A stretch of DNA of 64,000 nt. It comes from Octopus vulgaris. Lineage: Eukaryota. The position numbers and the translations under genes are program-made. The DNA lies in assembly GCA_951406725.2 (NCBI GenBank), contig OX597823.1:30256001-30320000 (forward strand), in the 5' to 3' direction. Of this stretch, positions 11,304-61,818 are shown in pieces. Under the pieces are notes generated by a model that did not search any database, was not told the DNA's origin, and saw nothing but the letters and a program-made list of their open reading frames with translations. How positions within the stretch are numbered: position 1 is the first letter of the stretch; each line of letters starts with the position of its first letter.

Positions 11304-11363
<60 letters not shown>

Positions 11364-11659
11364 TCAATGAGAATATTATATACTGAATTTATATTGAGTG
11401 CTCAATTGTATCAAAGTATTAATACTATTAAAGTATTTATGTATTTAATACGAGCAATTATATATATTTTATAATATATTATTATTAATATCATGAAATC
11501 AATATTAGAAAATTCTTCAGAAGGATATATACGTGTGTAAAATAATTGTTGAATTAAAAATATAAATATATATATATATAAAACAAATATGTAAATATGT
11601 ATAAGTATAAATATATAATATACATGACATTTTAAAAGTTTTGAATTAAGTTTTTAAAG

Positions 11660-11751
11660 TATCTTACGAACGTTTCGCAGAAGTGCTGTCCCTGTAATGG
11701 AACCCTATATTGATAAGTATTTGTAGACAACTCTTCTGCTCTTCAGAGATA
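11660..11751 (-). ncRNA. Type I hammerhead ribozyme with extended stem II
   Basis: tatct-CTGAAGA-gcagaag...cttctgc-GAAA-cgttcg-TA-agata. 5-bp stem I, perfect 7-bp base of stem II with G10.1-C11.1, GUA triplet. Confidence 0.8.
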
Positions 11752-11888
11752 TAAAATTTGAATTTTATATAATGTATCGAATGGTAGTATTTTATAAATA
11801 TGAAGTAATACTATAAAGTGGTGTTATAGTATTACTTCATATTTTTAAAAGACTACGATTCGATATATTATACAACATTCAAATTTTA

Positions 11889-11980
11889 TATCTCTGAAGA
11901 GCAGAAGAGTTGTCTACAAATGCTTATCAATATAAGATTCCATTATAGGGACAGCACTTTTTCGAAACGATCGTAAGATA
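11889..11980 (+). ncRNA. Type I hammerhead ribozyme with extended stem II (mirror copy)
   Basis: tatct-CTGAAGA-gcagaag...ctttttc-GAAA-cgatcg-TA-agata. Palindromic stem III. Predicted cleavage after 11975. Confidence 0.75.
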
Positions 11981-12014
11981 ATTTAAAAACTTAATTCAAA
12001 ACTTTTAAAATGTA

Positions 12015-12424
12015 CTATCTATATCTATAAAACAGTCCTTGGACGAAAATTGTATGCACATTTTGCTTTGACGGTTAATGACGGCCAAACCGAGGCTAGG
12101 ATCGAGCTGAAAATTGGCAGGGACACTAAATGCGTGGTGAGGATGAGAGCCGCGATGGTTAAAATTCGCAAGCTATAAAGATGTGGTTGCTATGGCAAAA
12201 ATAATGAGTTTTATCTCTCTATAACGACGTTTGACAGCTTCGTCTCTCTGTCACTCTTACTTCCACCACCTCTTCCACTGTACGTCTGTCTGTATCTATA
12301 GAAAGCGTTGACAGCCGCAAAAGTTTAAATATTGCCGCCACGGGTCTTTTAGAACGGTGAATTATTATCGCCCACCACCATCGCACAATCATAACAGATA
12401 TTATTAATCAGATATATTGTGCTA

Positions 12425-12504
<80 letters not shown>

Positions 12505-12627
12505 ATGTATATATATGTGTGTGTGTGTGTGTATAAATATATATATATAATGTATTTATATATATATATATATGTAGACATGTATATATAATGCGTATAT
12601 ATGTACATATTTAATGCGTATATATAA

Positions 12628-12666
<39 letters not shown>

Positions 12667-13374
12667 GTGCATATGTGGTCGGATTGAGCTGAAAATATGC
12701 ACACCTATGTTAAAAGTGCTAGCGAGTTTGCATGGGAACTTTGAGTTTGCTCAATTGAAAGGCATGGCTTCTAGGGCAAAATTCTTCATCTTTTAAAATG
12801 TGGCCCGCTTAGAGCCGAGTGAAATCGCGTTATAATACCGAAACACGTAAAACAATAATAAACTATTTTAATCCCGAGCAAGACTGTGTATATCTGTCTA
12901 ATCTATAAAATGAAGAAGGCGAATGTTGATACAAATTGGATTTTTATGTAAAAAGGGGTCTAAATGAGGCTGGAAACGGATTAAAATTTACAGGAGTGGG
13001 TAACTTGAGGTAAGAAATTGATTTGGAGACGTTTTGGGGGCGCCATAGTGGTTGCTTTGGTGTGAAAACGGGCATTTTATTGATTTTGGGGGACACTTGG
13101 TGGCTTAGATTGGACACCTTTTGTCCGATTTCAATCAAATTTTCAACATGGTATGGTGGAAGCGGATTTGTATTTTGAGCGCGGAAATCTAATTTTTTAT
13201 AAATGGGAGATAGATAGATAGAGAAAGATAGAGAGTAAGAGAAAGCGAGGGAGAGTCCGAGAGAAAGGAGAGAGAAACAAAGAGGGTGAATGTGGCGATA
13301 AGAAACAGAAAGGAAGCAACAGAAAGTAACAACCACACCCTCACGGGCGCATAGAGCGGGTCACTTTAAGCTAG
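12015..13374 (+). mobile_element. Two tandem non-autonomous Helitron-like elements (about 12015-12900 and 12901-13374)
   Basis: Both start with tctataaaa-type ends. First ends cccgagcaagactgtgtatatctgtcta, second ends cgggcgcatagagcgggtcactttaagCTAG followed by T. The block is absent from the mirror arm and has no TSD. Confidence 0.65.
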
Positions 13375-13536
13375 TACATTATATATTTATACCTATACAT
13401 ATTTTTTATATATATTTATATTTTTAATACAACAATTATTTTACACACGTATATATCTTTCTGAAGAATTTTCTAATATTGATTTTCTGATAATAATAAT
13501 AGATCATAAAATATATATAATCGCTCGTGCGTATGT

Positions 13537-20585: not shown

Positions 20586-21371
20586 CAGACAAATAGACAG
20601 ACAGACAGATCGATAGATCGATAAATATAGATTCCTGTACTAAGTTACCTCGTTCACTGCTAAACTATATAATAAAATACATGAAATATAATAAGGCGGC
20701 CACAGTCCATTCAAAATACAAAAATTAATCTAATTTAAATTCTTTTCTACTCTAGGCAAAGGCCCGATATTTTGGGTGGGAGGGGCTTAGTCAATTCGAT
20801 CGACACTAGTACGCAACTAGTACTTAATTTATCGACTCTGGAATGACGAAAGGCAAAGTCGACCTCGGCGGAATTTGAACTCAGAACGTAGCGGCAGACG
20901 AAATACCGCTAAGCGCCCCACCCGGCGCGCTAAAATTCCAAGTATTATCACTTATTTTGTATCATCCTACACCCAGTTTAGTAATACTATTGTTTATATT
21001 CGTCGCCATTCTACTACAGTCACCTTGACCTCACAAAATCAACCAAGTCGATCTCACCACACCTTTTTTTTTTATCCTTCCTCATTTCTATACAATTCGG
21101 ACAATATATTTACAAACGTGCCCCTCCCTTATTTGTCCTCTTTCTATCACCAGCTCCTATGACTCTAAGCTTTCTATTTTTAGCTTCTTTTGTTGTCCTA
21201 TCCCCTTCTGGTCTATTCATAATCATCATTTACGCAATACTATTTTTAGCCACCACACCATAAAGACAGTACAACATATATATATATATTCTTTTCTTTT
21301 TTTTCTTTTATTTCTTTCCGTCATTTGACTGCGGCCATGCTGGGGCACCACCTTTTAGTCGAGCAAATATA

Positions 21372-21456
<85 letters not shown>

Positions 21457-21541
21457 TAGAGAGAGAGGGAGAGAGAGAAAGATTACAGTGCAATACAGCT
21501 GTTGTTACCTCCTCTCTCTCTCTCTCTCGCTATATATATAC

Positions 21542-22097
<556 letters not shown>

Positions 22098-22335
22098 CTA
22101 TATTGTTTATCTTTATTATTTTTGGATTTTCCTTTACTTTCACTCTGCGGCGCTTGTATTCACAAAATTTAGACTATTCTTTAAGTCACAAATTGGGTCA
22201 CACGAATGACATGATATGTTTGGAAAGAGATCATAGAGCAATGCCTTATATATCCCATTTAACTCATTTCATTCTTACACCTATTTATTATACTCGGTCT
22301 ACAAACACCAGTTTGCACAATCTAGGTATTTTTAT

Positions 22336-22573
22336 TGTTGTATTTGGGGATGGCCATATTATTATTATTTTTATTTTATTTATTTTTTTGCCAAATAAAC
22401 ACATGCACTTTGTATTTGTTCTTCACTCGTTTATTACTGTTCTTATTTTAAGTCATGTCCATTGTCCGGAAATCTTTCGTCACACACCTGAGACCTCTTC
22501 AGCGACACTTTTCGTTTTCGTGTGTGCACTTGTTCCACTTACCCCATTTTGCTCTTCTAAGATGTCTATTTAG
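22336..22573 (-). mobile_element. ~240-bp hammerhead-bearing insertion (Penelope pseudo-LTR-like)
   Basis: Absent from the mirror arm, where ctaggtatttttatttcccatata is contiguous at ~24424-24446. Confidence 0.7.
22463..22507 (-). ncRNA. Candidate minimal type I hammerhead ribozyme
   Basis: tgtcg-CTGAAGA-g-gtc(tcaggtgtgt)gac-GAAA-gatt-TC-cggaca. Stem I has a single bulge. Confidence 0.6.
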
Positions 22574-24738
22574 TTCCCATATAATCTCGATGTAAAAAAA
22601 AAAACATTATTTCATTATATAACATTTCACGTAATTTTTATCTTTCACTCTTTTTAACTATTTACCTATCCAACCATTTATTCATGTCCAAATTTTCGTT
22701 AATCCGACTGTATCTCTTCTTCCTGATTAATTCCAAAATTTGAAACAAGGCCAGAAACTTCGGAGACGACGAGAGTCGATTATTTTCCCTAATTAATAAT
22801 TAATAAAATCCTAATTAATAAAATCTTTAAAGAGTTTGTTCCGAACACCTTTCATCCCTGAAGAGATGATAAAATAAGAATCAGCTTAGCACTGGCATCA
22901 ATGTAATTGAATTCCTCCTTCCCTCAAAATATCTGGCATTGTACCAAAATTCGAAAGGATATTTTATTGTTTTAAAATATTTGAAGGATTATTTTGTTTT
23001 ATCAGTTGAGTGTCTTAAAAGCGATTTTGTTTTCTTAATCGAAGTCTGATTTCTTTATACTCCAACGTTTTTCACTTTGCCTTTGACTTAATTCCATCAT
23101 TACATTAATGCCTTGACCTAATTTTAGCAAACACTTATTCCCTAATTTATTGGCTGGCCAACGGTGTCAATGGAGGAGGTACGCCTATTACATTGGCCAC
23201 AATGTTCAACTGGTATTTATTTAATTGACCCCCGAAAGGATGGAAGGCAAAGTTGACCTCGGCGTATTTTCAACAGAGAAAGATGAAGGGAAATGCTGTT
23301 CAGCATTATGCCCGGTACAGTAACATTTCTGCCACCTCACCGCCTTACCCCAAATTTATTGATCAATAACATAATATCAATTATTTTCGTAATTAATTTA
23401 AGTAATTTCTTACCTGTTTACTCTTCTTCACTAATATTTATTCCATTCATCTTTTATAATTAAATGTGTTAAAATGTCCGAACTTGCATTAAAATTCTTC
23501 TCTTCTGATATGAAAACAATTTACAACGCTACTTAATTACTTCCTTTTATTCAGAAATCTAACTTCACTTTATGGAACATCTTAGATTTTTTAATTCTCC
23601 TCTCACGTTCTGTCTTTACCAAGACTCCCGCTCACATTTCTCTTTTCTGCTCTTATTGATCAATAAATTTGGGGTAAGGCGGCGAGGTGGCACAAATGTT
23701 ACTGCTTAACGGCATTTCCCTTCATCTTTATGTTCTCAGTTGAAAATACGCCGAGGTCAACTTTGCCTTCCATCCTTTCGGGGTCGATTAAATAAGTACC
23801 AGCTGAACATTGTGGTCAATGTAATAGGCGTACCTCCTTCATCGATACTGTTGGCCTTGTGTCAAAGTTCGAAGCCAATAAATTAGGGAATAAGTGTTTG
23901 CTATAATTAGGTTAAGGCATTAATGTAATGATGGAATTAAGTCAAATGCAAAGTGAAAAACGTTGGAGTATAAAGAAATCAGACTTCGATTAAGAAAACA
24001 AAATCGTTTTAAAGACAATCAGCTGATAAAACAAAATAATCCTTCAGATATTGGAAAAAGAAAATATTTTAAAACAATATAAGATCCTTTCGAATTTTGG
24101 TACAATGCCAGGCATTTTGAGGGAAAGAAGAGCCAGTGCTAAGCTGATTCTTATTTTATCAATGTCTTCAGGGATGAAAGGTGTACTAATTAGGATTTTA
24201 TTAATTATTAATTAGAAAAAATAATCGACTTACGTCGTCTCCGATATTTCTGGCCGTGTTTCAAATTTTGGAATTAATCAGGAAGAAGAGATACAGTCGG
24301 ATTAACGAAAATTTGGACAGGAATAAATGGTTGGATAGGTAAATAGTTAAAAAGCGTGAAGGATAAAAATAACGTGAAATGTTAAATAATGATATAATGC
24401 TTTTTTTTTTTTAAATCGAGGTTATATGGGAAATAAAAATACCTAGATTGTGCAAGTGGATGTTTGTAGATCGAGTATTATAAATAGGTATAAGAATGAG
24501 ATGAATTAAATTGGATATATAAGGCATCATTCTATGATTCTTTTCCAAAGATATTATGTCATTTCTGTGACCCAAATTGAGAATTAAGGAATAGTCTAAC
24601 TTTTGTGAACATAAGCGCTGCAGTATGAAAGTAAGAGAAATTCAGAAATAATAAAGATAAACAATGATTATATTTGTATGTATGTAGAGAGAAGGTAACA
24701 ACAGCTATACATATTGTACTGTAATTTCTCTCTCTCAC

Positions 24739-24773
<35 letters not shown>

Positions 24774-24822
24774 CATACATACATACATACATACATACAT
24801 ACATACATACATTCATACATAC

Positions 24823-24869
<47 letters not shown>

Positions 24870-24950
24870 ACTGTAATTTCCAAAATTCGAATAATTCACA
24901 ATTCTGAAACATGCCTGGTTTCAATGTTTTGGATATGAAATTGTGAACCC

Positions 24951-25055
<105 letters not shown>

Positions 25056-25074
25056 ATAGTAGTAGTAATAGTAA

Positions 25075-25130
<56 letters not shown>

Positions 25131-26120
25131 AACGTACAAGCATTGGTGGTATGACTAAGATAGGTGAACGGTTTTTATGGTGCGGTAGCTAAAAATAGTA
25201 TTGCGTAAATGATGATTATGAATAGACCAGAAGGGGATAGGACAACAAAAGAAGCTAAAAATAGAAAGCTTAAAGTCATAGGAGCTGGTGATAGAAAGAG
25301 GACAAATAAGGGAGGGGCAGCGTTTGTAAATATATTGTCCGAATTGTATAGAAATGAGGAAGGATAAAAAAAAAAGGTGTGGTGAGATCGACTTGGTTGA
25401 TTTTGTGAGGTCAAGGTGACTGTAGTAGAATGGCGACGAATATAAACAATAGTGTTACTAAACTGGGTGTAGGATGATACAAAATAAGTGATAATACTTG
25501 GAATTTTAGCGCGCCGGGTGGGGCGCTTAGTGGTATTTCGTCTGCCGCTACGTTCTGAGTTCAAATTCCGCCGAGGTCGACTTTGCCTTTCGTCATTCCA
25601 GAGTCGATAAATAAAGTACCAGATGCGTACAAGTATCGATCGAATCGACTGGGCCCCTCCCACCCAAAATATCGGGCCTTTGCCTAGAGTAGAAAAGAAT
25701 TTAAATTAGATTAATTTTTGTATTTTGAATTGACTGTGGCCGCCTTATTATATTTCATGTATTTTATTATATAGTTCTCATTTGGAGGGAATATTTAGCT
25801 GTGAACGAGGTAATTTAGTGGTGACATTTAGTAGAGATGACCCGGAAGTTGTTCCTCTTCGATTACTATAGCAAACAGCAGTTGCTTTCTTCAACTGAAT
25901 ACATGTCGTTGGTTGGTTAAAATTACCCAAATACGACAACTTTAACACGAAATAACTTCTAAAATACGAAATTTTGTCAAAAATGTTGAAAGTGAACCGA
26001 GTTGAGCGTGAGAAATTACACCAGTATACCAAGTTTCAAACTGTTTAGTTAATTAAAAAAAATAATTAAAAGATCTGTGAGCGAAACTAAACAGATCCCG
26101 AAAATAACTGATGTTAAATA

Positions 26121-33404: not shown

Positions 33405-34858
33405 TGAAATGCCAGTACACCGCTGCCAAGACGCCTCAGAACAAGTCTGGCATACAATTGTAAAACTCGTAGGGCAGACCATCCAGACCCGGCGATTTGT
33501 CTCTCGAGCATCCTGCCATCGCATCCCTCACTTCCGACGCCGTGATGGCACCTTTGCAGCACTCTTCCTCTCTTGCCGAGAGTCGTGGCAGGCTGTGCAG
33601 GTAGGCACTGAAGTCCACCCTGCGTTCACGATCACCACTCTTCCCGTACAGTCGGGCAAAATGCCGCTGAAATGCCTCGCACATTTTGCTGGGCACGAGC
33701 AATTCGCGTCCTTGTTAGTCTAACAGAGACCGAATGGTGGCTTTGTTGACCTGCGGCGCCTCCGCCACCCGGGCCTCTCTCGCGGCTCCAACACCTTCCA
33801 TCCTTAGAGCACGCATCCTAGCCCTGACAGCACACCCTTCGTGTTTTGCGTTGAAGTGTTGGTCGAGGGTCAACCTCGCCGCCAAAACGTCGGATGCCGC
33901 TTCTTATTGCCTCTTCTAACTTCTTAACTAACTCACCCTCTACTCTAATTCTATCTACGGCTAGTGCCTTACTATATCTTATTGCTTCTACTTTTACTGC
34001 TCTCTTGAGGGCGAACCACCATTTGTTGTTGACAATGGTTCCCATCAAAGCCCTCTTTACTAACGTGCTGATTCTGTCTCTGAAAACCTGTCTGGACGGG
34101 AAAGATGCGTTTAATTTCCAGTAACCGGGACTCTGCCTATGTGCCTTATCTAAGTCTAGCGTACACGTCACGAATTTGTGATCCGTGTAGCTGACTGTGT
34201 GGAATTTTGGACATCCTAAACTATCCCTATCTACTGTCCTACACAGTATCCTATCTAGATACGATCTCGACGACCCACTGCGGTTGCTCCATGTCTACGT
34301 TGGTGCATTTTGGTGGTCGAGTCGGTACCTGTCAGACAGCTGGAATCGCCTGAGCCACTCTCTGAGGCATTTGCATTCCCGTCTGTTTTTGTCTCTCCCC
34401 ACATAGTCTAGATGCGTGTCCAAGGTAGCATTCCAATCCCCCACTAAAAGTAAAGGACGAGACGTTCCCAGGAATACTTCTAGACGTCGAAAGAAGTCCG
34501 GCCGACCTGTTAAAGGTGGTGCATAGACTGCTAGGAGTCGAAAAGCGCACTCATGGCTGCCGTCGACATCCAGGACAACCAGCCTACCCTCCGGGTCTAT
34601 GAATATCGTCTTGACATTGAGATCCAGACTCTTGTGAAAAAGTACTGCCGTGCCACTACCGCTCATCCTCAGCAGACAGGGAGAAAAATAAATGTTAAGC
34701 TGTCCGCCAAACATGGACTTTAGGGCCCGTGGTTCATGGAGTCTGGTCTCACTTATGGCTATGATTCCCAAATCGTGTGACTTGATGTCATTTAGGAGGT
34801 ACCCTTGTTTCCAAGGAGACCCCAAGCCACGCGCATTCACACAACCAATCTTGACCAT
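33405..34858 (-). pseudogene. L1/Tx1-type ORF2 N-terminal part (APE endonuclease and linker), truncated at the start of the RT
   Basis: CVNARGL, AISETRL, AVYAP, VGDWNA, SYLDRI, TDH, GYWKLN and KSPGLDGLPYEFY. Stop at 34295, frameshift near 33895. Confidence 0.92.
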
Positions 34859-34936
34859 GATCCTATTGAGATGTGTGCTTTAAAAACACAAAAAGAAAGG
34901 TACAGAGAGTACACTGATGCGTCTTGGAGAAGGTTT

Positions 34937-37071
34937 TTATAAAGTTTTTTCGATAAGTATTTTTGCCCCCCCCCCCAACCACATTTGGAAAGAGGGCTTT
35001 GAGTGTGTGGTGTTGTGTTTGTGTGATGTGTAGTATCTTGATGTGTTTCGGTGGTGTAGTGCGTGGATGGTTGTTAGTTTTGAAATCATCTTCACAGATG
35101 CTTGTGTGGCTGTGATGTACTCCATTAGTTTTGAGTTTTTTGTGTCTATCGCAGATAGCATTGTGTGTGTTTTTGTGGTGTTGGTGCTGGTTTGGTTGTG
35201 CAAGGGGCTTTCAGGGTTTACATATCTGCCTGCTTTGGTTGCAGTTGCTTGTTTGTTTTTTTATCTTTTTCTTTTACCTCCGGTGGCTATTTGCCATTCT
35301 GTTGCGCTTTCATCGTTATACGAAATGTCTGACGAATCAGAAAGGGGTAAGGGCAAAGCATCTGGATCTGTTTGTGTGATTGTAGGTATTATTGTGGTGT
35401 GTGGTGTGTGTGTTGTTGAGTGATTTGGGAGTAATAATTGTCTCTTCTTCTGGGTGCTTGTCTTCTTGGTAGTTATTCTTGGTGTTGGAGTTGGCTTATC
35501 TTTAGTTGTTGTTGTTAGTGGTGTTCTTTCTGTTCTTGGCGCAGGTGGTGGTGTTGTTTGGTTGGGTTGGTTCGTTCGTGGTTGCTTTTCTTGCATTTCC
35601 GTGTATAGCTGCTTGATCAGTCGTGCATACTGTGATGTGGGTAACAATGCTGGCTTTTTTGGTTTTTCCTGTGGCTATTGTTGTTGTTGTTGTTGTTGTT
35701 TCGCGGCAGATTTGCAATCCTTTTTAAGGTATGCTTCACTGCCGCATATATAGCAGCGTGGTCGTCTGCCCTCGACCACTACATACAATTTGTGGTCTTC
35801 CGATAGATGTATATGGGTGGGTATTGTATTTATGGAGCCTTGATTAATCTGGAGAAGAATCTCCAGTCTCTTTCCCACACAGTTTTTCTGTTCTGAAACA
35901 GCAATTTGTAGGCTATTTACATCCGCCATTTCGACACATATGGCTGATGTTACCCATAGTGTGTCTGCTATTGGAGGAACATTGTTGATTATAACTTTTG
36001 TTACCCTCTGACCAAGGTAGCTGGGTATCAATATTAGGTCGTCTGAATGAAGAGTTAGCGTTGAGAATTGTTTTGCTAACTTTTCATTTTGAAATACCAC
36101 ATGTACATGAGCAAACTTGTGCCACCAAGTCACATACTCTTTGCACCCCCAAATAGGGCGAAGGCATTTTTCAATTTTGTCTGTATTTGCTTTTTTTTGA
36201 CTTTTGGTTGTGCTGTTTATTATTTTATATATAATTGTTTTGTTTTTTTGCGTCATCTAGTATATGTTGTGGTACATTTAATGCTTTTGTATCTTTTATC
36301 TGCTGTGCAGTAAACGATACTATTGTCTTTTTTGTTTTATCGCCTCGGCGAAATTTGTTGTTATTTTGTTATTGTTGTTGCTGGTGGTGGTGTTGGTGGC
36401 AGATGCGACAGTTGTTGGTACATTTGGTGTATGGTTGTTGATTGTGTAACTAGGAAGCGGTGGAAAATTGTTTACATAATTTGCCCCAACGTTTGAACAA
36501 ATTTTGGCAATTCGTTTGGTGGCCGCGACTTTTTCTTTCTCTCCTTCAGTTGTTGGTGGTGGCAAAGGCTGGAGGGAATTGTTGTTATTGTTGTTATTGT
36601 CGTTCTTGGTGGTGGCGGTGGTATCGGTAGCAGGGGAGGCAGCCGTAGCAGCAGATATTGAAGTGGTGGCGTTGGTATTGACGATATGGTCTTCGGTGGC
36701 GGTGATGGTGAATGGCCTTGCGACCTTGGTTTTGTTGTTGTTGTTGCTGTTGTCGTTGGTGATGGTGTCGGTAGCAGAAGAAGCAGTTGTATAGCCGAAG
36801 CCGCCGTGGTGGTGGTGTCGGTGTTGATGGTGGAGTCATTGGTGGAAGTGATGGTGGATGGCCTGGGGACCTTGGTTTTGTTGTTGTTGCTGTTGTTGAT
36901 GCTGATGGTGGTGGTGGTGGTGGAGTTAGTGGCCAGGTTCAACGAATAGTGGCGGGAAACCTTGCCCTTTTGTTTCTGTGGCTTTGCTGGCGTCACGCTT
37001 GACTTGCGCGCTGGCTTTGTGGTGACCAGTAACGATTTTTGAAAATAAATATGGCTAAAATCAAACCACAA
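34937..37071 (-). pseudogene. L1/Tx1-type ORF1 (Thr/Pro-rich low complexity, RRM-like part, zinc knuckle), disrupted
   Basis: VVVEGRRPRCYICGSEAYLKKDC (CX2CX4[H>Y]X4C) in ORF 35675-36256. Lies directly upstream of ORF2 on the same strand. Confidence 0.75.
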
Positions 37072-37246
37072 ATCCTTTCAGAATTTTTTAAATTTTGCCC
37101 ACAAAGGGGCGAAATTTTGTGTGGATGTTAGTGAAGGTATGAGTTGGGTGTTGTACACCTTTTAGACATAAAATGTTTGACAATAAACGATTTTAAACGT
37201 AGAAAACGACCAGCTTACTTGGAGCCCATTTGACTTGCGTCCGTCC

Positions 37247-37439: not shown

Positions 37440-37590
37440 CAATATCGTAAAGTGAGAATGAGTAACAAATACTGAATTGGTGTTGGGGACTCGTTTTTTA
37501 CCAACACGCTTAAACAATTGTGAAGATCCCTTCACATGAAGCCATTGTTTGCCTGTTAACCCACAAATAAAGCATGTGTATATGTATATG

Positions 37591-37648
<58 letters not shown>

Positions 37649-37731
37649 GGTCCCGGGTTGATTCGGGGTTAACCACAGTAAGTAAGGTACTCAATACATA
37701 GCAGAGTAAAATTAATTTATTATATAGAAGG

Positions 37732-37782
37732 AGCTTCTACAGGACTAGTACTGTTTCATTCAAGAGAAATCTTCAGGAAGCT
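37732..37782 (-). ncRNA. Type I hammerhead ribozyme (left tip of palindrome)
   Basis: agcttc-CTGAAGA-tttctcttgaat-GAAA-cag(tactagtc)ctg-TA-gaagct. Perfect 6-bp stem I, 3-bp stem II, GUA triplet. Confidence 0.8.
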
Positions 37783-38164
37783 ATTTAACAAGAATTGTAT
37801 TAGCATTTATACATTTAGGCAGGTTTAAAGGAGTGGTGGTGGGGGACTTTTTTGGGGGTAGGCATAGCGCAAAATATCATACTTGGGGGAGTGGTCAAGG
37901 AGTCAGTGGTAAGTTAGATGAAAGAATAGATAAATAAAAAAATAAAATAATAAAATTAAAAAAAAAAAATTAAAAAAAAAAATAAATAAATAAAAAAAAA
38001 AAATAATAAAATAATAAAATAATAAAAAATAAAAAATATATATAAAAAATATATATATAAAAAAATATATATATAAAAAAAGGGGGGATAGAGTTATAGG
38101 TAAATAAGGAGATTCTCACTTATACCTATACACATATGTATACGTATCTACACACATATATATA

Positions 38165-38206
<42 letters not shown>

Positions 38207-38518
38207 TATACATATATACACATATACATACATATCTACATACACACATACATACACCCGCCCACATATACAAATTTATACACATGCCCATGCATATACC
38301 TGTCTACACATACACACACGTATATATGCATACACTCACTCCCATGCATGCACGCATACACACATGTATATATATACACACGACCACACATACATATATA
38401 CACAGAAAAATATATATTCATACGCACATACACTCATGCACACACAACACACCTAGTTCCCTATATACACATATTTACACCTATATATACATACACCCAC
38501 ATACACATATGTACATAT

Positions 38519-38550
<32 letters not shown>

Positions 38551-38649
38551 CACGCATACATATATATACATGTGTGCACATACATACATATACACATATA
38601 CATACACACACACATACACATGTGTACCTATACATACCTACACATACAC

Positions 38650-38694
<45 letters not shown>

Positions 38695-39115
38695 CCAATA
38701 CAGGCCCATTCCCTAATTTTAATTTTATTATCTTCATTTATTACTTTTGTTATCTTTGATCGCTAGAGCTAAGGATCCTGGCTATGGCAGCATGTCCATT
38801 TGTCTGTCTACTAGAAGGCAAGTACTCATTCCCGCACGCACACTCATTAGCACGTACATTCACCCATTCGTACACTCATACACATACACGTACGCACGTG
38901 TTATATTCATACATACAAACATCTACATACGTTCACGTATATACACATACGTACTGTACCTACAGATCTGTGTCTACACTTTAGGAGGCTAGTCTATACA
39001 TATACACCAATAAACATACATATATATATATATATACACATATACATACACACACACACATATACTCCTACATACAGATACATACCTATATATATATACA
39101 TATATATACATATAT

Positions 39116-39153
<38 letters not shown>

Positions 39154-39356
39154 ATACATACACACACACACATATATACACACACATACATACATATATA
39201 TACATACACAAACATACATACACACATATATATATATATATATCACACATACACACACATACATACATATACACACAAACACATACATACGTATACATAC
39301 ATACATACATCCATACATCCATATTACATGTATTTATATGCATACACACACCCCCA

Positions 39357-39391
<35 letters not shown>

Positions 39392-39887
39392 TCACACATA
39401 CATATACAAATATACGCACACACATACATACATACATGTATACGCATACACGCACATACACATATACATGCGTACCCATACACGTGCACACACGCACGTG
39501 CATCCATATATATACACACACACACATATATACACGTGTGCAAGCATACATACATACTCATACACGCACACATACTTACATATACATATATGCACACACT
39601 TACACACATATATACATACACATATACATGCATACGTACATATATGCATACATACACATACACGCACATACACATATACATGCGTACCCATACACGTGCA
39701 CACACGCACGCGCATCCATATATATACACACACACATATATATGTGTGCAAGCATACATACATACTCATACACGCACACATACTTACATATACATATATG
39801 CACACACTTACACACATATATACATACACATATACATGCATACATACATATATGCATACATACACACACGCGCACTCATATATATAT

Positions 39888-39921
<34 letters not shown>

Positions 39922-40021
39922 CATATATACACATACATATACATACACACATACATATACATACACATACATGTGTATGTGTATGTGTATGTATATGTAT
40001 GTGTGTATGTATATGTGTGTA

Positions 40022-40077
<56 letters not shown>

Positions 40078-40566
40078 TGAGTGCGCGTGTGTGTATGTAT
40101 GCATATATGTATGTATGCATGTATATGTGTATGTATATATGTGTGTAAGTGTGTGCATATATGTATATGTAAGTATGTGTGCGTGTATGAGTATGTATGT
40201 ATGCTTGCACACGTATATATGTGTGTGTGTGTATATATATGGATGCGCGTGCGTGTGTGCACGTGTATGGGTACGCATGTATATGTGTATGTGCGTGTAT
40301 GTGTATGTATGCATATATGTACGTATGCATGTATATGTGTATGTATATATGTGTGTAAGTGTGTGCATATATGTATATGTAAGTATGTGTGCGTGTATGA
40401 GTATGTATGTATGCTTGCACACGTGTATATATGTGTGTGTGTGTATATATATGGATGCACGTGCGTGTGTGCACGTGTATGGGTACGCATGTATATGTGT
40501 ATGTGCGTGTATGCGTATACGTGTATGTATGTATGTGTGTGCGTATATTTGTATATGTATGTGTGA

Positions 40567-40605
<39 letters not shown>

Positions 40606-40823
40606 TGGGGGCGTGTGTATGCGTATAAATGCATGTAAGTATGGATGTATGGATGTATGTATGTATGTATGTATACGTATGTATGTGTTTGTGTGTATAT
40701 GTATGTATGTGTGTGTATGTGTGCATATATATATATATATATATGTGTGTATGTATGTTTGTGTATGTATATATATGTGTATGTATGTGTGTGTATATAT
40801 ATGTGTGTGTGTGTATGTATGTA

Positions 40824-40854
<31 letters not shown>

Positions 40855-41277
40855 ATATATGTATATATATGTATATATATATAGGTATGTATCTGTATGT
40901 AGGAGTATATGTGTGTGTGTGTATGTATATGTGTATATATATATATATATATGTATGTTTATTGGTGTATATGTATAGACTAGCCTCCTAAAGTGTAGAC
41001 ACGAATCTGTAGGTACGAGTACGTATGTGTATATACGTGAACGTATGTAGATGTTTGTATGTATGAATATAACGCGTGCGTACGTGTATGTGTATGAGTG
41101 TACGAATGGGTGAATGTACGTGCTAATGAGTGTGCGTGCGGGAATGAGTACTTGCCTTCTAGTAGACAGACAAATGGACATGCTGCCATAGCCAGGATCC
41201 TTAGCTCTAGCGATCAAAGATAACAAAAGTAATAAATGAAGATAATAAAATTAAAATTAGGAATGGGCCTGTATTGG

Positions 41278-41324
<47 letters not shown>

Positions 41325-41744
41325 GTGTATGTGTAGGTATGTATAGGTACACATGTGTATGTGTGTGTGTATGTATATGTGTATATGTATGTATGTGCAC
41401 ACATGTATATATATGTATGCGTGTATATGTATATATATATATGTACATATGTGTATGTGGGTGTATGTATATATAGGTGTAAATATGTGTATATAGGGAA
41501 CTAGGTGTGTTGTGTGTGCATGAGTGTATGTGCGTATGAATATATATTTTTCTGTGTATATATGTATGTGTGGTCGTGTGTATATATATACATGTGTGTA
41601 TGCGTGCATGCATGGGAGTGAGTGTATGCATATATACGTGTGTGTATGTGTAGACAGGTATATGCATGGGCATGTGTATAAATTTGTATATGTGGGCGGG
41701 TGTATGTATGTGTGTATGTAGATATGTATGTATATGTGTATATA

Positions 41745-41788
<44 letters not shown>

Positions 41789-42089
41789 TATATATATGTG
41801 TGTAGATACGTATACATGTGTGTATAGGTATAAGTGAGAATCTCCTTATTTACCTATAACTCTATCCCCCTTTTTTTATATATATATTTTTTTATATATA
41901 TATTTTTTATATATATTTTTTATTTTTTTTTTTTTTATTTATCTATTCTTTCATCTAACTTACCACTGACTCCTTGACCACTCCCCCAAGTATGATATTT
42001 TGCGCTATGCCAACCCCCAAAAAAGTCCCCCACCACCACTCCTTTAAACCTGCCTAAATGTATAAATGCTAATACAATTCTTGTTAAAT

Positions 42090-42140
42090 AGCTTCCTGAA
42101 GATTTCTCTTGAATGAAACAGTACTAGTCCTGTAGAAGCT
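42090..42140 (+). ncRNA. Type I hammerhead ribozyme (right tip of palindrome)
   Basis: Identical to the left copy. Predicted cleavage after 42134. aataaa lies 11 nt after the motif. Confidence 0.8.
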
Positions 42141-42184
42141 CCTTCTATATAATAAATATATATATATATATATATATATATTCT

Positions 42185-51966: not shown

Positions 51967-52041
<75 letters not shown>

Positions 52042-52060
52042 GTATATATATATATATATA

Positions 52061-52750
52061 TAAAAAAGGAAATGAAGAAAATGCTGACAAATAATTGAAG
52101 TAATTTAAGTAATTTAATTAGGTGAAAGTTCTTTTTACCGGTTGCGCATTTGTTATGCTTATCAAAATATAAAAGAGAGATTAGAGTCTGTCTCTTATAT
52201 GTGAAAAAAAGAGGCTCCAGAGTTGTTTTGGATTTGCTTGGTTTCGCGCCTAAAATTTTGATTGGTCATTATGAAGGGGTCACGTGAATGTTTGAATGGA
52301 AGTTGGTGTTGGGGTAAGAAAAAAGGCTCCAGAGAAGTTAAAATTTGGCTAGTGTCCCGCCTAAAATTTCTTATTGGCCATAATAAAGAGGTCACGTGAA
52401 TGTTTAGAATTTTCGAAAATAGTGTTGTTGAAAATTCTTATTGTTCAGGCTGGTCAGTAGACGTCATGTGGATATTTTAAATAGCTTTTTAGCGCGTAGT
52501 TAGGGAGTGTATTTTCCGCTTGACTGGATAAGTAAGTTCGTTTAGAACAGGGAGAGCTGTATGTATGTATGTGTGTGCGCGCGCGCGCGTGTGTGTGTTT
52601 ATATGTATGTTGGGGCGCGCGCGCGTGTATATATGTGTGTGTGTGTGGGTACAATTTTCACGGTAAAAACCGGTAAAAAGAACTTTCACCTAATTAAATT
52701 ACTTAAATTACTTCAATTATTTGTCAGCATTTTCTTCATTTCCTTTTTTA
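52061..52750. mobile_element. Element with perfect 83-bp terminal inverted repeats in (TA)n
   Basis: 52061-52143 is the exact reverse complement of 52668-52750. Internal ~110-bp imperfect tandem pair at 52204-52405. Confidence 0.85.
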
Positions 52751-52784
52751 TATATCACCACTCGTGTTCGACATCTCCTTTTTT

Positions 52785-52853
<69 letters not shown>

Positions 52854-59018: not shown

Positions 59019-59901
59019 CGAGGCCTGATCAATAAGTATCCGGACTGTTACCATAGTAACGAAGCTAAAGCACATAGATTAAAGCCGCTTGACAAAGATT
59101 GACCTTGAACTCTGTTGTGAATGCGCACTAAGTTTTAACGTTCTAGCTCACTTCTGCTCTTTACAGCAGTACTTGGAAGGAAGGTGTGTAGCATGTGATC
59201 GCCGCATTGGCCATGATAGGAAAAGTTTTCATGGTGATACCTGCTCAGAGGCCTAGGCAAGGTTGCAGAAAGAGTATGGATAGAAGTGTATGAGCAGCAC
59301 ACAAGTCTATGAGTGGTTCAGACATTTCCAAGATGGCCGAAAAAATGTCAATATTGACGAACATTCTGGGAGACTCGCAACCAGCAGAACAGGGAAAAAC
59401 ATTACAGATGTGCGTGCAGCTGTGAGGGGAAGTTGTCGAATCTCCATCCATAATTTATCAGAGGTTAAGCAGATTAGTTACAGTATAATTCAGTCCATTA
59501 TCACTGAAGAGTTGGATATGAGACGCGTGTCTGCCAAGTTTGTGCCAAAACTGCTTTCAGCTGACCAAAAGGACACTCACGCTTTAGTTGCACAAGATCT
59601 CCTTGATTGTGTGGAGAACGATGTAAACTTTTGAAACATTTGTGTAGGTTGTCTGAGCAGGTATTGCCAAGCTTTTGGCAAAATTTGATGCAGATTCTCA
59701 GCTCGACTTTCTCTGCGACGATCGCATTCTATATACGTTCCTTCCAAGCACTGCCGTAAAACAACAGAAGTGAGCAAGAACATTAAAAATTGTGCGCATG
59801 CACAACAGAGTTCAAGGTCATACTGTGCCGAGCGACTTTACGCTGCATGCTTTTGCTTCGTTACTATGGCAACAGTCCGGATACTTATCGATCAGATCAT
59901 G
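59019..59901 (+). mobile_element. Mariner-derived non-autonomous element with very long inverted ends and TA TSD
   Basis: TA-cgaggcctgatcaataagtatccggactgtt ... aacagtccggatacttatcgatcagatcatg-TA. ORF 59290-59634 has VYEWFRHFQDGR and MRRVSAKFVPKLL. Confidence 0.88.
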
Positions 59902-60530: not shown

Positions 60531-61818
60531 TTGGGTTGTCCGGAAAGTTCGTGTCGATTTTTAAAGAACAGAAAAATGTCAATAAATACTTGCCATTACA
60601 TACATTTTTAATCAACCAAAAATGAACCATTTTGTTACACAATGCGTCTCCATCTTTCCTTTAACTTGAAAATACCCTCTTCCCAGAAATGAGGTGGTTT
60701 TATGGCAAAGAATTCATCAAGGTATCTTTTTACGTCATCCAAGATATTGAAATTTTTACCATTATGACTATTCTGCAGAGACCTGAATAAGTGGAAATCC
60801 GAAGGAACAATATCTGGTGAACATAGAGGGTGTGATAACACATTCCAGCCGAGCAGCAGCAATTTTTGTCTGGATCCCAAAGAAACGTGCGGTCTCGCAT
60901 TATCATGTTGGAAAACAACATTCTTCCGGTTAGCCAATTCTGGACGTTTCTCTTGAATTGCTGCTTTTAACTCGTCCAGTTGTGTGCAGTATTTCTCAGA
61001 ATTAATTGTCTGGTTACTTGGGAAAAGCTCATAGTACAGAATTCCTTTCCAATCCCACCAGACAGAAAGCAAGACTTTTTTAGGATGAAGAACCGCTTTT
61101 GGGGTGGTTAAGGGTGGCTCATGTCGCTTACTCCAGGATCGCTTTCTCTGAACATTTCGGTAGATAATCCATTTCTCATCACCTGTCACAATTTGCTTTA
61201 AAAAAGGTGCGTTTTCATTCCGTTTATAAAACGAATCACAGATGGAAATGCGATCCAAAAGGTTCTTCTCACTCAACTCATGTGGTACCCAAACATCGTA
61301 GCGCTTTGTGTACCCAAGCTTTACCAGGTGCTCATGAACGACGGATTTTGATAGGTTGAGGCTTTCTGCCAATTCTTGGGTTGTGAAATGTGGGTTATTC
61401 TCAATTAATGACTTGATTTGGTCATCATCTGTAGTGGATGGTCTGTCTGGTCGCTCTTTATCAATAAGGCTACATCCTCCAGCTCGGAACCTTGCAAACC
61501 ACTTCCGTAAAGTTCTTTCGGATAAAGAAACATCACCGTAAACTGTGCATATTTCTTTGGTTGCTTGTGAGGCATTTTTCCCTTTACGGAAAAAGAAAAG
61601 CATCAAGTGCCGAAAATGAACTTTCTTATCTTCTATTTTAAATGGTTACAGAATTAAAATAGGTTGTAGGAGCATAAACCTTCTTCCACGAAAAGATAGC
61701 TTAAACTGTGCTCTAAATGGAGGTGGAGTCAAATCCTATTTTATGAACTCAACCATGTTCTAAAATAAGTCGAAAGGTAAGCTACTATAAATCGGCACGA
61801 ACTTTCCGGACAACCCAA
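60531..61818 (-). mobile_element. Full-length mariner transposon (1288 bp), probably mellifera-subfamily-like
   Basis: 30-bp TIRs ttgggttgtccggaaagttcgtgYcgattt with one mismatch. TA TSDs at 60529-60530 and 61819-61820. Confidence 0.96.
60635..61606 (-). CDS. Mariner DD34D transposase, nearly intact
   Basis: WVPHEL, TGDEKW, HDNARPH and CSPDIVPSDFHLF. Presumed original start reads ATA (61634-61636), and the TAA stop appears ~9 codons early. Confidence 0.85.
   Translation of the reverse strand: MMLFFFRKGKNASQATKEICTVYGDVSLSERTLRKWFARFRAGGCSLIDKERPDRPSTTDDDQIKSLIENNPHFTTQELAESLNLSKSVVHEHLVKLGYTKRYDVWVPHELSEKNLLDRISICDSFYKRNENAPFLKQIVTGDEKWIIYRNVQRKRSWSKRHEPPLTTPKAVLHPKKVLLSVWWDWKGILYYELFPSNQTINSEKYCTQLDELKAAIQEKRPELANRKNVVFQHDNARPHVSLGSRQKLLLLGWNVLSHPLCSPDIVPSDFHLFRSLQNSHNGKNFNILDDVKRYLDEFFAIKPPHFWEEGIFKLKERWRRIV

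What the first reader, a model, noticed from the sequence alone, without database searches (positions are those of the whole stretch)
37648..42157. 4.4-kb non-coding palindrome tipped at both ends by outward-facing hammerhead ribozymes
Seen: two ~2.2-kb arms fold about ~39971 with almost no spacer. Each tip carries the identical motif agcttc-CUGAAGA-stem II-GAAA-cag(uACUAGUc)cug-UA/gaagcu, followed by AAUAAA. The left arm has an extra ~67-nt tail (37648-37714), and both ends abut (TA)n. The body is complex CA/TA low-complexity DNA with no credible ORF. Known: Penelope-like retroelements carry minimal type I hammerheads with palindromic stem III loops in their pseudo-LTRs, can have inverted pseudo-LTRs, and have a 3' tail extension. 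Described retrozymes have direct, not inverted, ribozyme repeats. Inference: this is a non-autonomous fold-back ribozyme element. Transcription of either strand gives essentially the same RNA, a ~2-kb hairpin with a self-cleaving 3' end. It could be mobilised in trans by a Penelope RT and would be a strong ADAR or Dicer substrate.
Basis: partly seen in the sequence, partly recalled or inferred. Interest (0 to 1): 0.88.

Follow-up and report, generated by a model that had tools for sequence, protein, structure and literature searches.

The report
Head-to-head Penelope (Hydra) retroelement stump
This 4.5-kb DNA palindrome is two back-to-back, shortened copies of the end of a very abundant protein-coding Penelope-type jumping gene, a known insertion layout, but its thousands of sister copies suggest that the element's RNA likely begins, capped, at the first base of the hammerhead motif and is likely copied twice, once from each side of the target cut.

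Summary
The palindrome, both hammerhead motifs, the one-sided tail and the (TA)n flanks are real. It is not a separate non-autonomous fold-back element. It is a 5'-truncated, inverted insertion of a young, autonomous Penelope-like family (713-aa RT + GIY-YIG ORF with Hydra-clade motifs; 5.1-5.7-kb unit). Its arms are the last 2.2 kb of that element's ~3-kb microsatellite-rich 3' region. The genome holds 1,726 exact copies of this hammerhead core. Of the first 100, 64 sit in outward-facing pairs 48 nt to 10 kb apart, and none faces inward within 12 kb. The layout is published, and the scan found it before on other DNA. Family statistics add a mechanism. At least 1,484 arms stop at the hammerhead's 5' edge, 29 nt behind a TATAAA. 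18 of 22 arms joined there directly to (TA)n carry an untemplated G, the cap signature. At most 24 arms start at the cleavage site. The tail sits on the longer or shorter arm equally (14:17). Inferred: twin target-primed reverse transcription of capped, uncleaved RNA. Cleavage, transcription and editing are untested.

The parts
37579..37645 (.). left (TA)n target microsatellite
   Evidence: sequence; 179 of 185 terminal ends in the fetched loci abut (TA)n (5 unclear, 1 other)
37646..37714 (-). 69-nt tail = the element's 5' UTR downstream of the hammerhead; its end is the outer inferred RT start site (nt 137 of the predicted RNA)
   Evidence: continues into the ORF in full-length copies; 2,283 exact tail-to-TA ends in the genome
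37715..39971 (-). left arm: last ~2.2 kb of the element's microsatellite-rich 3' region, element sense on the minus strand
37732..37782 (-). type I hammerhead motif, left copy; predicted cut between 37738 and 37737; 37782 = predicted transcription start
37805..37811 (-). TATAAAT, predicted TATA box of an outward-facing promoter
39969..39974 (.). head-to-head junction (ACATGT); the two arms end about 8 nt apart in a TG/TA repeat
39972..42157 (+). right arm: same 3' region, sense on the plus strand, tail-less end at ATAATAAAT (inner inferred RT start site, nt 68 of the predicted RNA)
   Evidence: 95% to L105 7348-9616
42061..42067 (+). TATAAAT, 29 nt upstream of the predicted start
   Evidence: 29 nt in 163 of 172 long arms in the fetched loci (overlapping loci counted twice)
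42090..42140 (+). type I hammerhead motif, right copy; 42090 = predicted capped start; predicted cut after 42134; loop III holds self-complementary ACTAGT
42151..42156 (+). AATAAA, possible polyadenylation signal (untested)
42158..42181 (.). right (TA)n target microsatellite, followed by a SINE-like dispersed repeat

Best explanation
This is a 5'-truncated, head-to-head insertion of an autonomous Hydra-clade Penelope-like retroelement into a (TA)n repeat, most likely made by two separate target-primed reverse transcriptions, one from each nicked strand. Shown: the arms are the 3' region of a family with a 713-aa RT + GIY-YIG ORF; sister insertions face outward, vary in length, carry the tail on one arm, and have both arms of one haplotype. 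Inferred: (1) the family's RNA starts, capped, at the first base of the hammerhead, 29 nt behind a TATA box, so the 182-nt 5' UTR is hammerhead, inner RT start (nt 68), outer RT start (nt 137), then AUG. (2) The RT-endonuclease cuts both target strands; one 3' end primes at the tail end and the other at the tail-less site. (3) The two cDNAs grow toward each other, stop, and join at their 3' ends through short complementarity. Priming in the 5' UTR gives ~205-bp mini-palindromes that run off the cap. Priming in a downstream copy of a read-through transcript gives long ones such as this one. (4) The template is the uncleaved RNA. This copy is most likely an inert product, apart from two predicted outward-facing promoters.
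For: Identity: tip has 1,206 candidates, 40 of 40 scored at 99-100%; full-length and tandem copies with the ORF sense to the hammerhead; Hydra motifs (vs PMC8557442). Layout: 32 outward pairs, 0 inward, within 12 kb among the first 100 exact matches; 59 of 61 simple pairs have one tail. Twin priming: tail on the longer arm 14, shorter arm 17 of 31 (p 0.72); a short arm cannot copy a tail its partner lacks; arms share haplotype, 93 concordant vs 18 discordant, random pairing 18.7 vs 65.7; PAc cuts and extends both strands and starts RT at two sites that bound the tail (PMC11167929). Capped start: 1,484 arms break at -46 to -43 vs 1,920 that run through; 243 loci with the exact AGCT-centred junction; 18 G, 2 A, 0 C, 2 no extra base at (TA)n joins, where the template has T; TATAAA at -29; extra G as a cap mark in L1 (PMC11702581). 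Uncleaved template: 36 arms lack A before the cut site, at most 24 compatible with a start there (hand count). The fold junction at the hammerhead edge is also in contigs of three public runs from three studies (X1, X12, X18).
Against: No RNA data show the start, the cap or cleavage. No reads were laid across this locus. About a quarter of long pairs (12 of 44), this one included, are near-symmetric, more than independent truncation would give; a shared broken RNA 5' end or fold-back must be added. Later deletion across a symmetric centre could also give the 14:17 split. About half of the G-before-AGCT junctions equal a perfect palindrome minus one A and could be assembly error; the (TA)n joins and double-ended junctions cannot. 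The patterns are blind to some bases by design. Pfam finds no RT or GIY-YIG domain in the ORF itself; clade assignment rests on motifs and homologues, not on a tree.
Confidence: 0.7

Rival explanations
1. Same element, but one cDNA is made, folds back on itself and is copied; the endonuclease then trims one end (giving the tail-less arm), and later deletions make many centres asymmetric. This is close to the self-priming idea of Arkhipova et al. 2013.
For: Both arms share one haplotype, including a private change on both arms of C3:50607785/50608787; 12 of 44 long pairs are near-symmetric; the tail-less end lies in an AT-rich site with ATT, the PAc cut motif; PMC3846280 proposes self-priming.
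Against: 17 of 31 asymmetric pairs have the tail only on the shorter arm, which needs extra deletions.
Confidence: 0.2
2. One reading: a non-autonomous fold-back ribozyme element that is transcribed as a ~2-kb hairpin with a self-cleaving end and is copied as a unit in trans.
For: The two motifs are intact and identical. PLE machinery can act in trans on pseudo-LTR-flanked cargo (PMC3846280). The 243 identical mini junctions could in part be copies of copies.
Against: No second fetched long pair shares this fold point; centres differ. The body is simply the autonomous element's 3' region. Predicted promoters face outward. Arms starting at the cut site are rare. No sense-strand A>G excess. Mini-palindromes occur in two subfamilies and with many junction variants.
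Confidence: 0.06
3. Assembly artefact: a fold-back long read produced the mirror image.
For: The assembly has small errors: most copies are one C short in a run that contigs of 4 of 4 public runs show longer. No read was laid across this locus.
Against: The two flanks differ; only one arm has the tail; both ends stop at the family's exact termini; the arms differ at 13 sites; fold junctions of the family are present in contigs of public runs.
Confidence: 0.04

Closest known systems
Hydra clade of C-terminal EN+ Penelope-like elements (Craig et al. 2021, PMC8557442; read: passages, section 15, supplement part 2)
   Same: RWK-like motif, DKT, CxCX5C linker, no CCHH, CxxC and CxH in the endonuclease, canonical hammerhead near the 3' end with the same U...U flanks on stem II, (TA)n target; Penelope-13_HM is listed with a 5'-truncated inverted copy
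   Different: Listed Hydra families are 1.1-3.0 kb; this unit is 5.1-5.7 kb because of a 2.8-3.6-kb microsatellite-rich 3' region. The hammerhead differs from Hydra-1_oBim, has a 4-bp stem III with an 8-nt loop, and none of five short motifs of this family was found in the supplement text.
Inverted pseudo-LTR insertions with one-sided tail in EN+ PLEs (Adineta vaga, PMC3846280, passages; Drosophila virilis Penelope, PMC2377424, passages)
   Same: Head-to-head arrangement, palindromic junction, tail on one side, partial tandems
   Different: Tail is 69 nt rather than 30-40; arms reach kilobases. The D. virilis promoter is internal and TATA-less with an intron ending at helix I, whereas here a TATA box and an extra G place the predicted start at helix I itself.
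PAc (Poseidon, Anolis) in vitro mechanism (Frangieh et al. 2024, PMC11167929; read: parts 1-2 of 4, passages)
   Same: Two RT start sites bounding the tail, AT-rich target, both strands cut and extended, hammerhead cleavage not needed
   Different: In PAc the start sites lie inside the ORF; here they lie in the 5' UTR. The passages read do not derive inverted insertions or map a capped start.
PLE hammerheads (Cervera and de la Pena 2014, PMC4209133; read: parts 1-2 of 4) and non-LTR retrozymes (Li et al. 2026, 10.64898/2026.07.22.740005; read: part 1 of 5)
   Same: Type I motif with palindromic loop III; that paper already notes dual motifs 100-700 bp apart on opposite strands
   Different: Retrozymes are direct tandem repeats without an ORF-bearing parent of the same sequence; here the repeats are inverted and the parent is autonomous.

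Membership tests
EN+ Penelope-like element (parent family) | Single ORF with RT and C-terminal GIY-YIG endonuclease, flanked by pseudo-LTRs in partial tandem | tested here: met
   713-aa ORF in frame in L100; tip-tail-ORF-3' region-tip in 12 copies; DIED/MGA/YRDD and VY..YIG motifs; 41% full-length identity to P0037, which carries PF01541; direct Pfam scans negative
EN+ Penelope-like element (parent family) | Inverted 5'-truncated copy and one-sided tail | tested here: met
EN+ Penelope-like element (parent family) | Target-site duplication | tested here: inconclusive
   cannot be read inside (TA)n
Hydra clade | RWK motif, DKT, CxCX5C linker, no CCHH, CxxC and CxH around conserved E and N | tested here: met
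   RWR 38 (RWK/RWR in homologues), DKT 116, CNCHDKTTC 567, one C only between VY and YIG, CDLC 667, CMH 695 vs PMC8557442
Hydra clade | (TA)n insertion and hammerhead near the 3' end | tested here: met
Hydra clade | Generally short (<3 kb) | tested here: not met
   units 5,104-5,743 nt in the 11 copies where it could be measured; a tendency in the paper, not a diagnostic
Hydra clade | Phylogenetic placement with named Hydra RTs | not tested
   named reference sequences were not held as stored proteins
Type I hammerhead ribozyme | Conserved core, three stems, NUH cleavage triplet | tested here: met
   (canonical fold -7.3 vs MFE -8.5 kcal/mol; GUA triplet); Rfam negative
Type I hammerhead ribozyme | Self-cleavage | not testable with these tools
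   needs an in vitro assay; genomic copies rarely start at the cut
Non-LTR retrozyme | Direct tandem repeats, each with a hammerhead, no coding parent | tested here: not met
   inverted arms; ORF-bearing parent
Non-autonomous fold-back family copied as a unit | Same internal structure and centre at many loci | tested here: not met
   centres differ among 44 long pairs; only the mini class shares a centre

The most novel reading that the evidence does not exclude
This family is a genomic record of the Penelope insertion cycle. Its mRNA starts with the hammerhead at nucleotide 1; the RT-endonuclease primes two cDNAs from opposite target strands at two sites in the 5' UTR; and they run off the cap and anneal through the self-complementary AGCT or the cap-derived C, seeding the genome with many hundreds of minimal double-hammerhead palindromes. 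The ribozyme would then act at the cap end as a switch that decaps the element's mRNA (removing nt 1-45), rather than as a 3'-end processor.
Probability: 0.5. Interest if true: 0.65.

Novelty: new member of a known kind. Interest (0 to 1): 0.4.

Why it matters
The single palindrome is ordinary. The family matters because the way Penelope-like elements form inverted ends and tails, and what their hammerhead does, are named as open questions in PMC8557442. A young family with thousands of near-identical arms gives exact, testable coordinates for the RNA start, the two RT start sites and the junction chemistry. It also places over a thousand predicted outward-facing promoters and hundreds of long inverted repeats across this genome.

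Tried and rejected
Rfam: no match at gathering score; the E-value listing showed only simple-repeat miRNA, snoRNA and sRNA models. Pfam and PDB sequence searches of the ORF gave nothing relevant. A structure prediction was submitted but had not finished, so no fold search was run. Programmed frameshift between RT and endonuclease: 45 of 53 rows show the shorter C run (overlapping loci counted twice), but contigs of 4 of 4 public runs carry one more C, so I read it as an assembly error. Nematis clade: my first guess from recalled motifs, dropped. LTR-like strand transfer from the cap to the downstream copy: predicted G scars at -46 in long arms were absent (0 G among 3 substitutions, 0 insertions). 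3' splice site at TAG/CTTCC as cause of the hotspot: rejected because no shared upstream exon appears and arms begin G-AGCTT. RNA-editing footprints between arms: none. Expression: no RNA holder listed on record; contigs cannot show starts or strand, so this says nothing either way. Chimeric subfamily A/B mini-palindromes were not counted genome-wide; none was seen among the small loci read. Literature: searches found no paper deriving a capped start or twin priming for PLEs from genomic junctions; the library lacks most subscription papers, and unread supplement parts of PMC8557442 (58 of 59 parts were only term-searched) and bioRxiv supplements may bear on this.

Full report
Observation. The left arm (37715-39971) and the reverse complement of the right arm (39972-42157) align with 2,137 matches, 13 mismatches and 143 gap columns, the gaps lying almost wholly in simple repeats. 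The axis is inside ACATGT at 39969-39974. Both tips carry the same 51-nt type I hammerhead motif, facing outward, and these are the only two sites in the window that pass a core-plus-stem-I scan. Rfam does not detect them, and the monomer is no more stable than shuffles. The canonical fold is 1.2 kcal/mol above the minimum, and the ACUAGU loop allows a predicted dimer. The tail is 69 nt (37646-37714). Both ends abut (TA)n.

What it belongs to. The window lies in G000, a 2.8-Gb genome. The tip has 1,206 first-look candidates; all 40 scored are 99-100% identical. Exact patterns give 1,726 hammerhead cores of this subfamily and 2,283 tail ends running into TA, with 0 control matches. Longer copies carry RT and endonuclease sequence in the same sense as the hammerhead. 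Twenty loci fetched around the RT 5' region show the full unit: hammerhead, tail, ORF, a 2.8-3.6-kb TG/TA-rich 3' region, hammerhead again, often in tandem. The window's right arm is the last 2.2 kb of that 3' region (95% to L105). The ORF is 713 aa in L100. Most assembled copies are one base short in a C run between RT and endonuclease, but contigs of 4 of 4 public runs show the longer run, so I treat it as assembly error. The protein has 1,080 homologues at E <= 1e-20 among 7,993 scored and every motif that Craig et al. give for the Hydra clade (PMC8557442 passages). Pfam does not recognise it directly; support for RT and GIY-YIG comes from motifs, a weak match to an RVT_1-positive PLE RT (E 1e-6) and a 41%-identical homologue annotated PF01541. 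Its hammerhead differs from that of Hydra-1_oBim in the paper's supplement.

Layout across the family. Among the first 100 exact cores on contig C1, 32 pairs face outward within 12 kb, 3 neighbours are same-strand and none faces inward; spacing runs from 48 to 10,265 nt. In the fetched loci I found 75 outward pairs and dropped 14 (5 inside tandem arrays, 9 with low k-mer cover). Of the remaining 61, 59 have one tail, one has two, and one scored as none has a mutated tail. This is the published PLE layout: inverted 5'-truncated copy, palindromic junction and one-sided tail (PMC8557442; PMC3846280; PMC2377424); opposite-strand hammerhead pairs are noted in PMC4209133. Centres differ among long pairs, so this palindrome is not a unit that is copied as such.

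How the palindromes likely form. Both arms point their 3' ends at the target, as two target-primed cDNAs would. The arms of one insertion share a haplotype (93 concordant, 18 discordant minor-allele sites; random pairing 18.7 and 65.7). Among 31 clearly asymmetric pairs with one tail, the tail is on the longer arm in 14 and on the shorter in 17. A short arm copied from its partner could not hold a tail the partner lacks. Frangieh et al. showed in vitro that a PLE protein cuts and extends both strands and starts RT at two sites bounding the tail (PMC11167929). I infer twin priming. Against it: 12 of 44 long pairs, this one included, have spacers of 50 nt or less, and later deletions could blur a fold-back origin.

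Where the RNA likely starts. The commonest short insertion is a ~205-bp palindrome folding at the hammerhead's 5' edge, in two subfamilies. 243 loci have the exact AGCT-centred junction. At least 1,484 arms break at -46 to -43 from the cut, against 1,920 that run through -55. In the first 100 rows (hand count), 77 begin AGCTTCC: 26 are perfect palindromes, and of the other 51, 42 have G before it, 7 A and 2 C; T, the template base, was excluded by the pattern. Where such an arm joins (TA)n directly, 18 have an extra G, 2 an A, 0 a C, and 2 no extra base. An extra G marks a reverse-transcribed cap in L1 insertions (PMC11702581 passage). TATAAA begins 29 nt upstream in 163 of 172 long arms. The same junction appears as loose ends in contigs of runs X1, X12 and X18. 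Only 36 arms lack A before the cut site; 12 are mutated whole hammerheads, so at most 24 could start there (hand count; A-preceded starts are invisible). I infer a capped RNA that begins with the hammerhead, stays uncut when used as template, and has its AUG 182 nt later (12 of 12 copies). A strand transfer from the cap left no scars.

The predicted promoters face outward, so they would not transcribe the hairpin. No host exon was seen in the window. Arm differences are few (85 clean substitutions in 45,389 columns of 40 pairs) and show no editing bias. Read-through hairpin RNA remains possible and untested.

Earlier notes of the scan. A sequence look-up found nothing. Word and place look-ups show the same layout in other genomes, elsewhere in this genome and at 11361-13528 of this window; one note reports the same break at stem I in another genome. 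I had seen the hotspot before reading it. No note held the cap and TATA terms.

Verdict. Real, and a new member of a known kind. The locus is ordinary; the family-level junction record gives a specific, testable account of PLE insertion. Interest 0.40.

Noticed in passing
window 20663-25776: Nested inverted repeats: 20663-21273/25165-25776 (97%), 22102-22336/24432-24665 (86%), 22569-23369/23653-24437 (84%); no hammerhead in my scan; possibly nested fold-back or MITE insertions.
   Followed up: no
   Followed up: partly
window ~33800-37100, minus strand: Decayed LINE-like element with an endonuclease/exonuclease/phosphatase domain, directly downstream of the left arm's predicted outward promoter.
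   Followed up: partly
window 60638-61645 (-) and 59025-59895: Mariner transposase ORF and a mariner-like remnant with ~180-nt inverted ends.
   Followed up: partly
window 51967-52850: Element with ~180-nt inverted ends (90%) between long (TA)n tracts and an internal direct repeat.
   Followed up: no
L042:1640-8352: A different Penelope-like element (730-aa RT ORF, RVT_1 hit, linker motif recalled as Neptune-like) as a 99.6% inverted pair.
   Followed up: no
L157; L152-L171: A second subfamily (loop III TTCTAGTC, weaker predicted dimer) and a third variant in L157 share the tail end and the hotspot.
   Followed up: partly
L092, L094, L095, L106, L109: Tandem arrays and copies with a shorter 3' region; all units of one insertion share the short form.
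   Followed up: partly
L036/L037, L094, L102: Copies of the family inserted into (TA)n tracts of their own 3' region, giving nested palindromes.
   Followed up: no
L040, L049, L053, L123 flanks: Four unrelated hammerhead-like motifs in flanking DNA.
   Followed up: no
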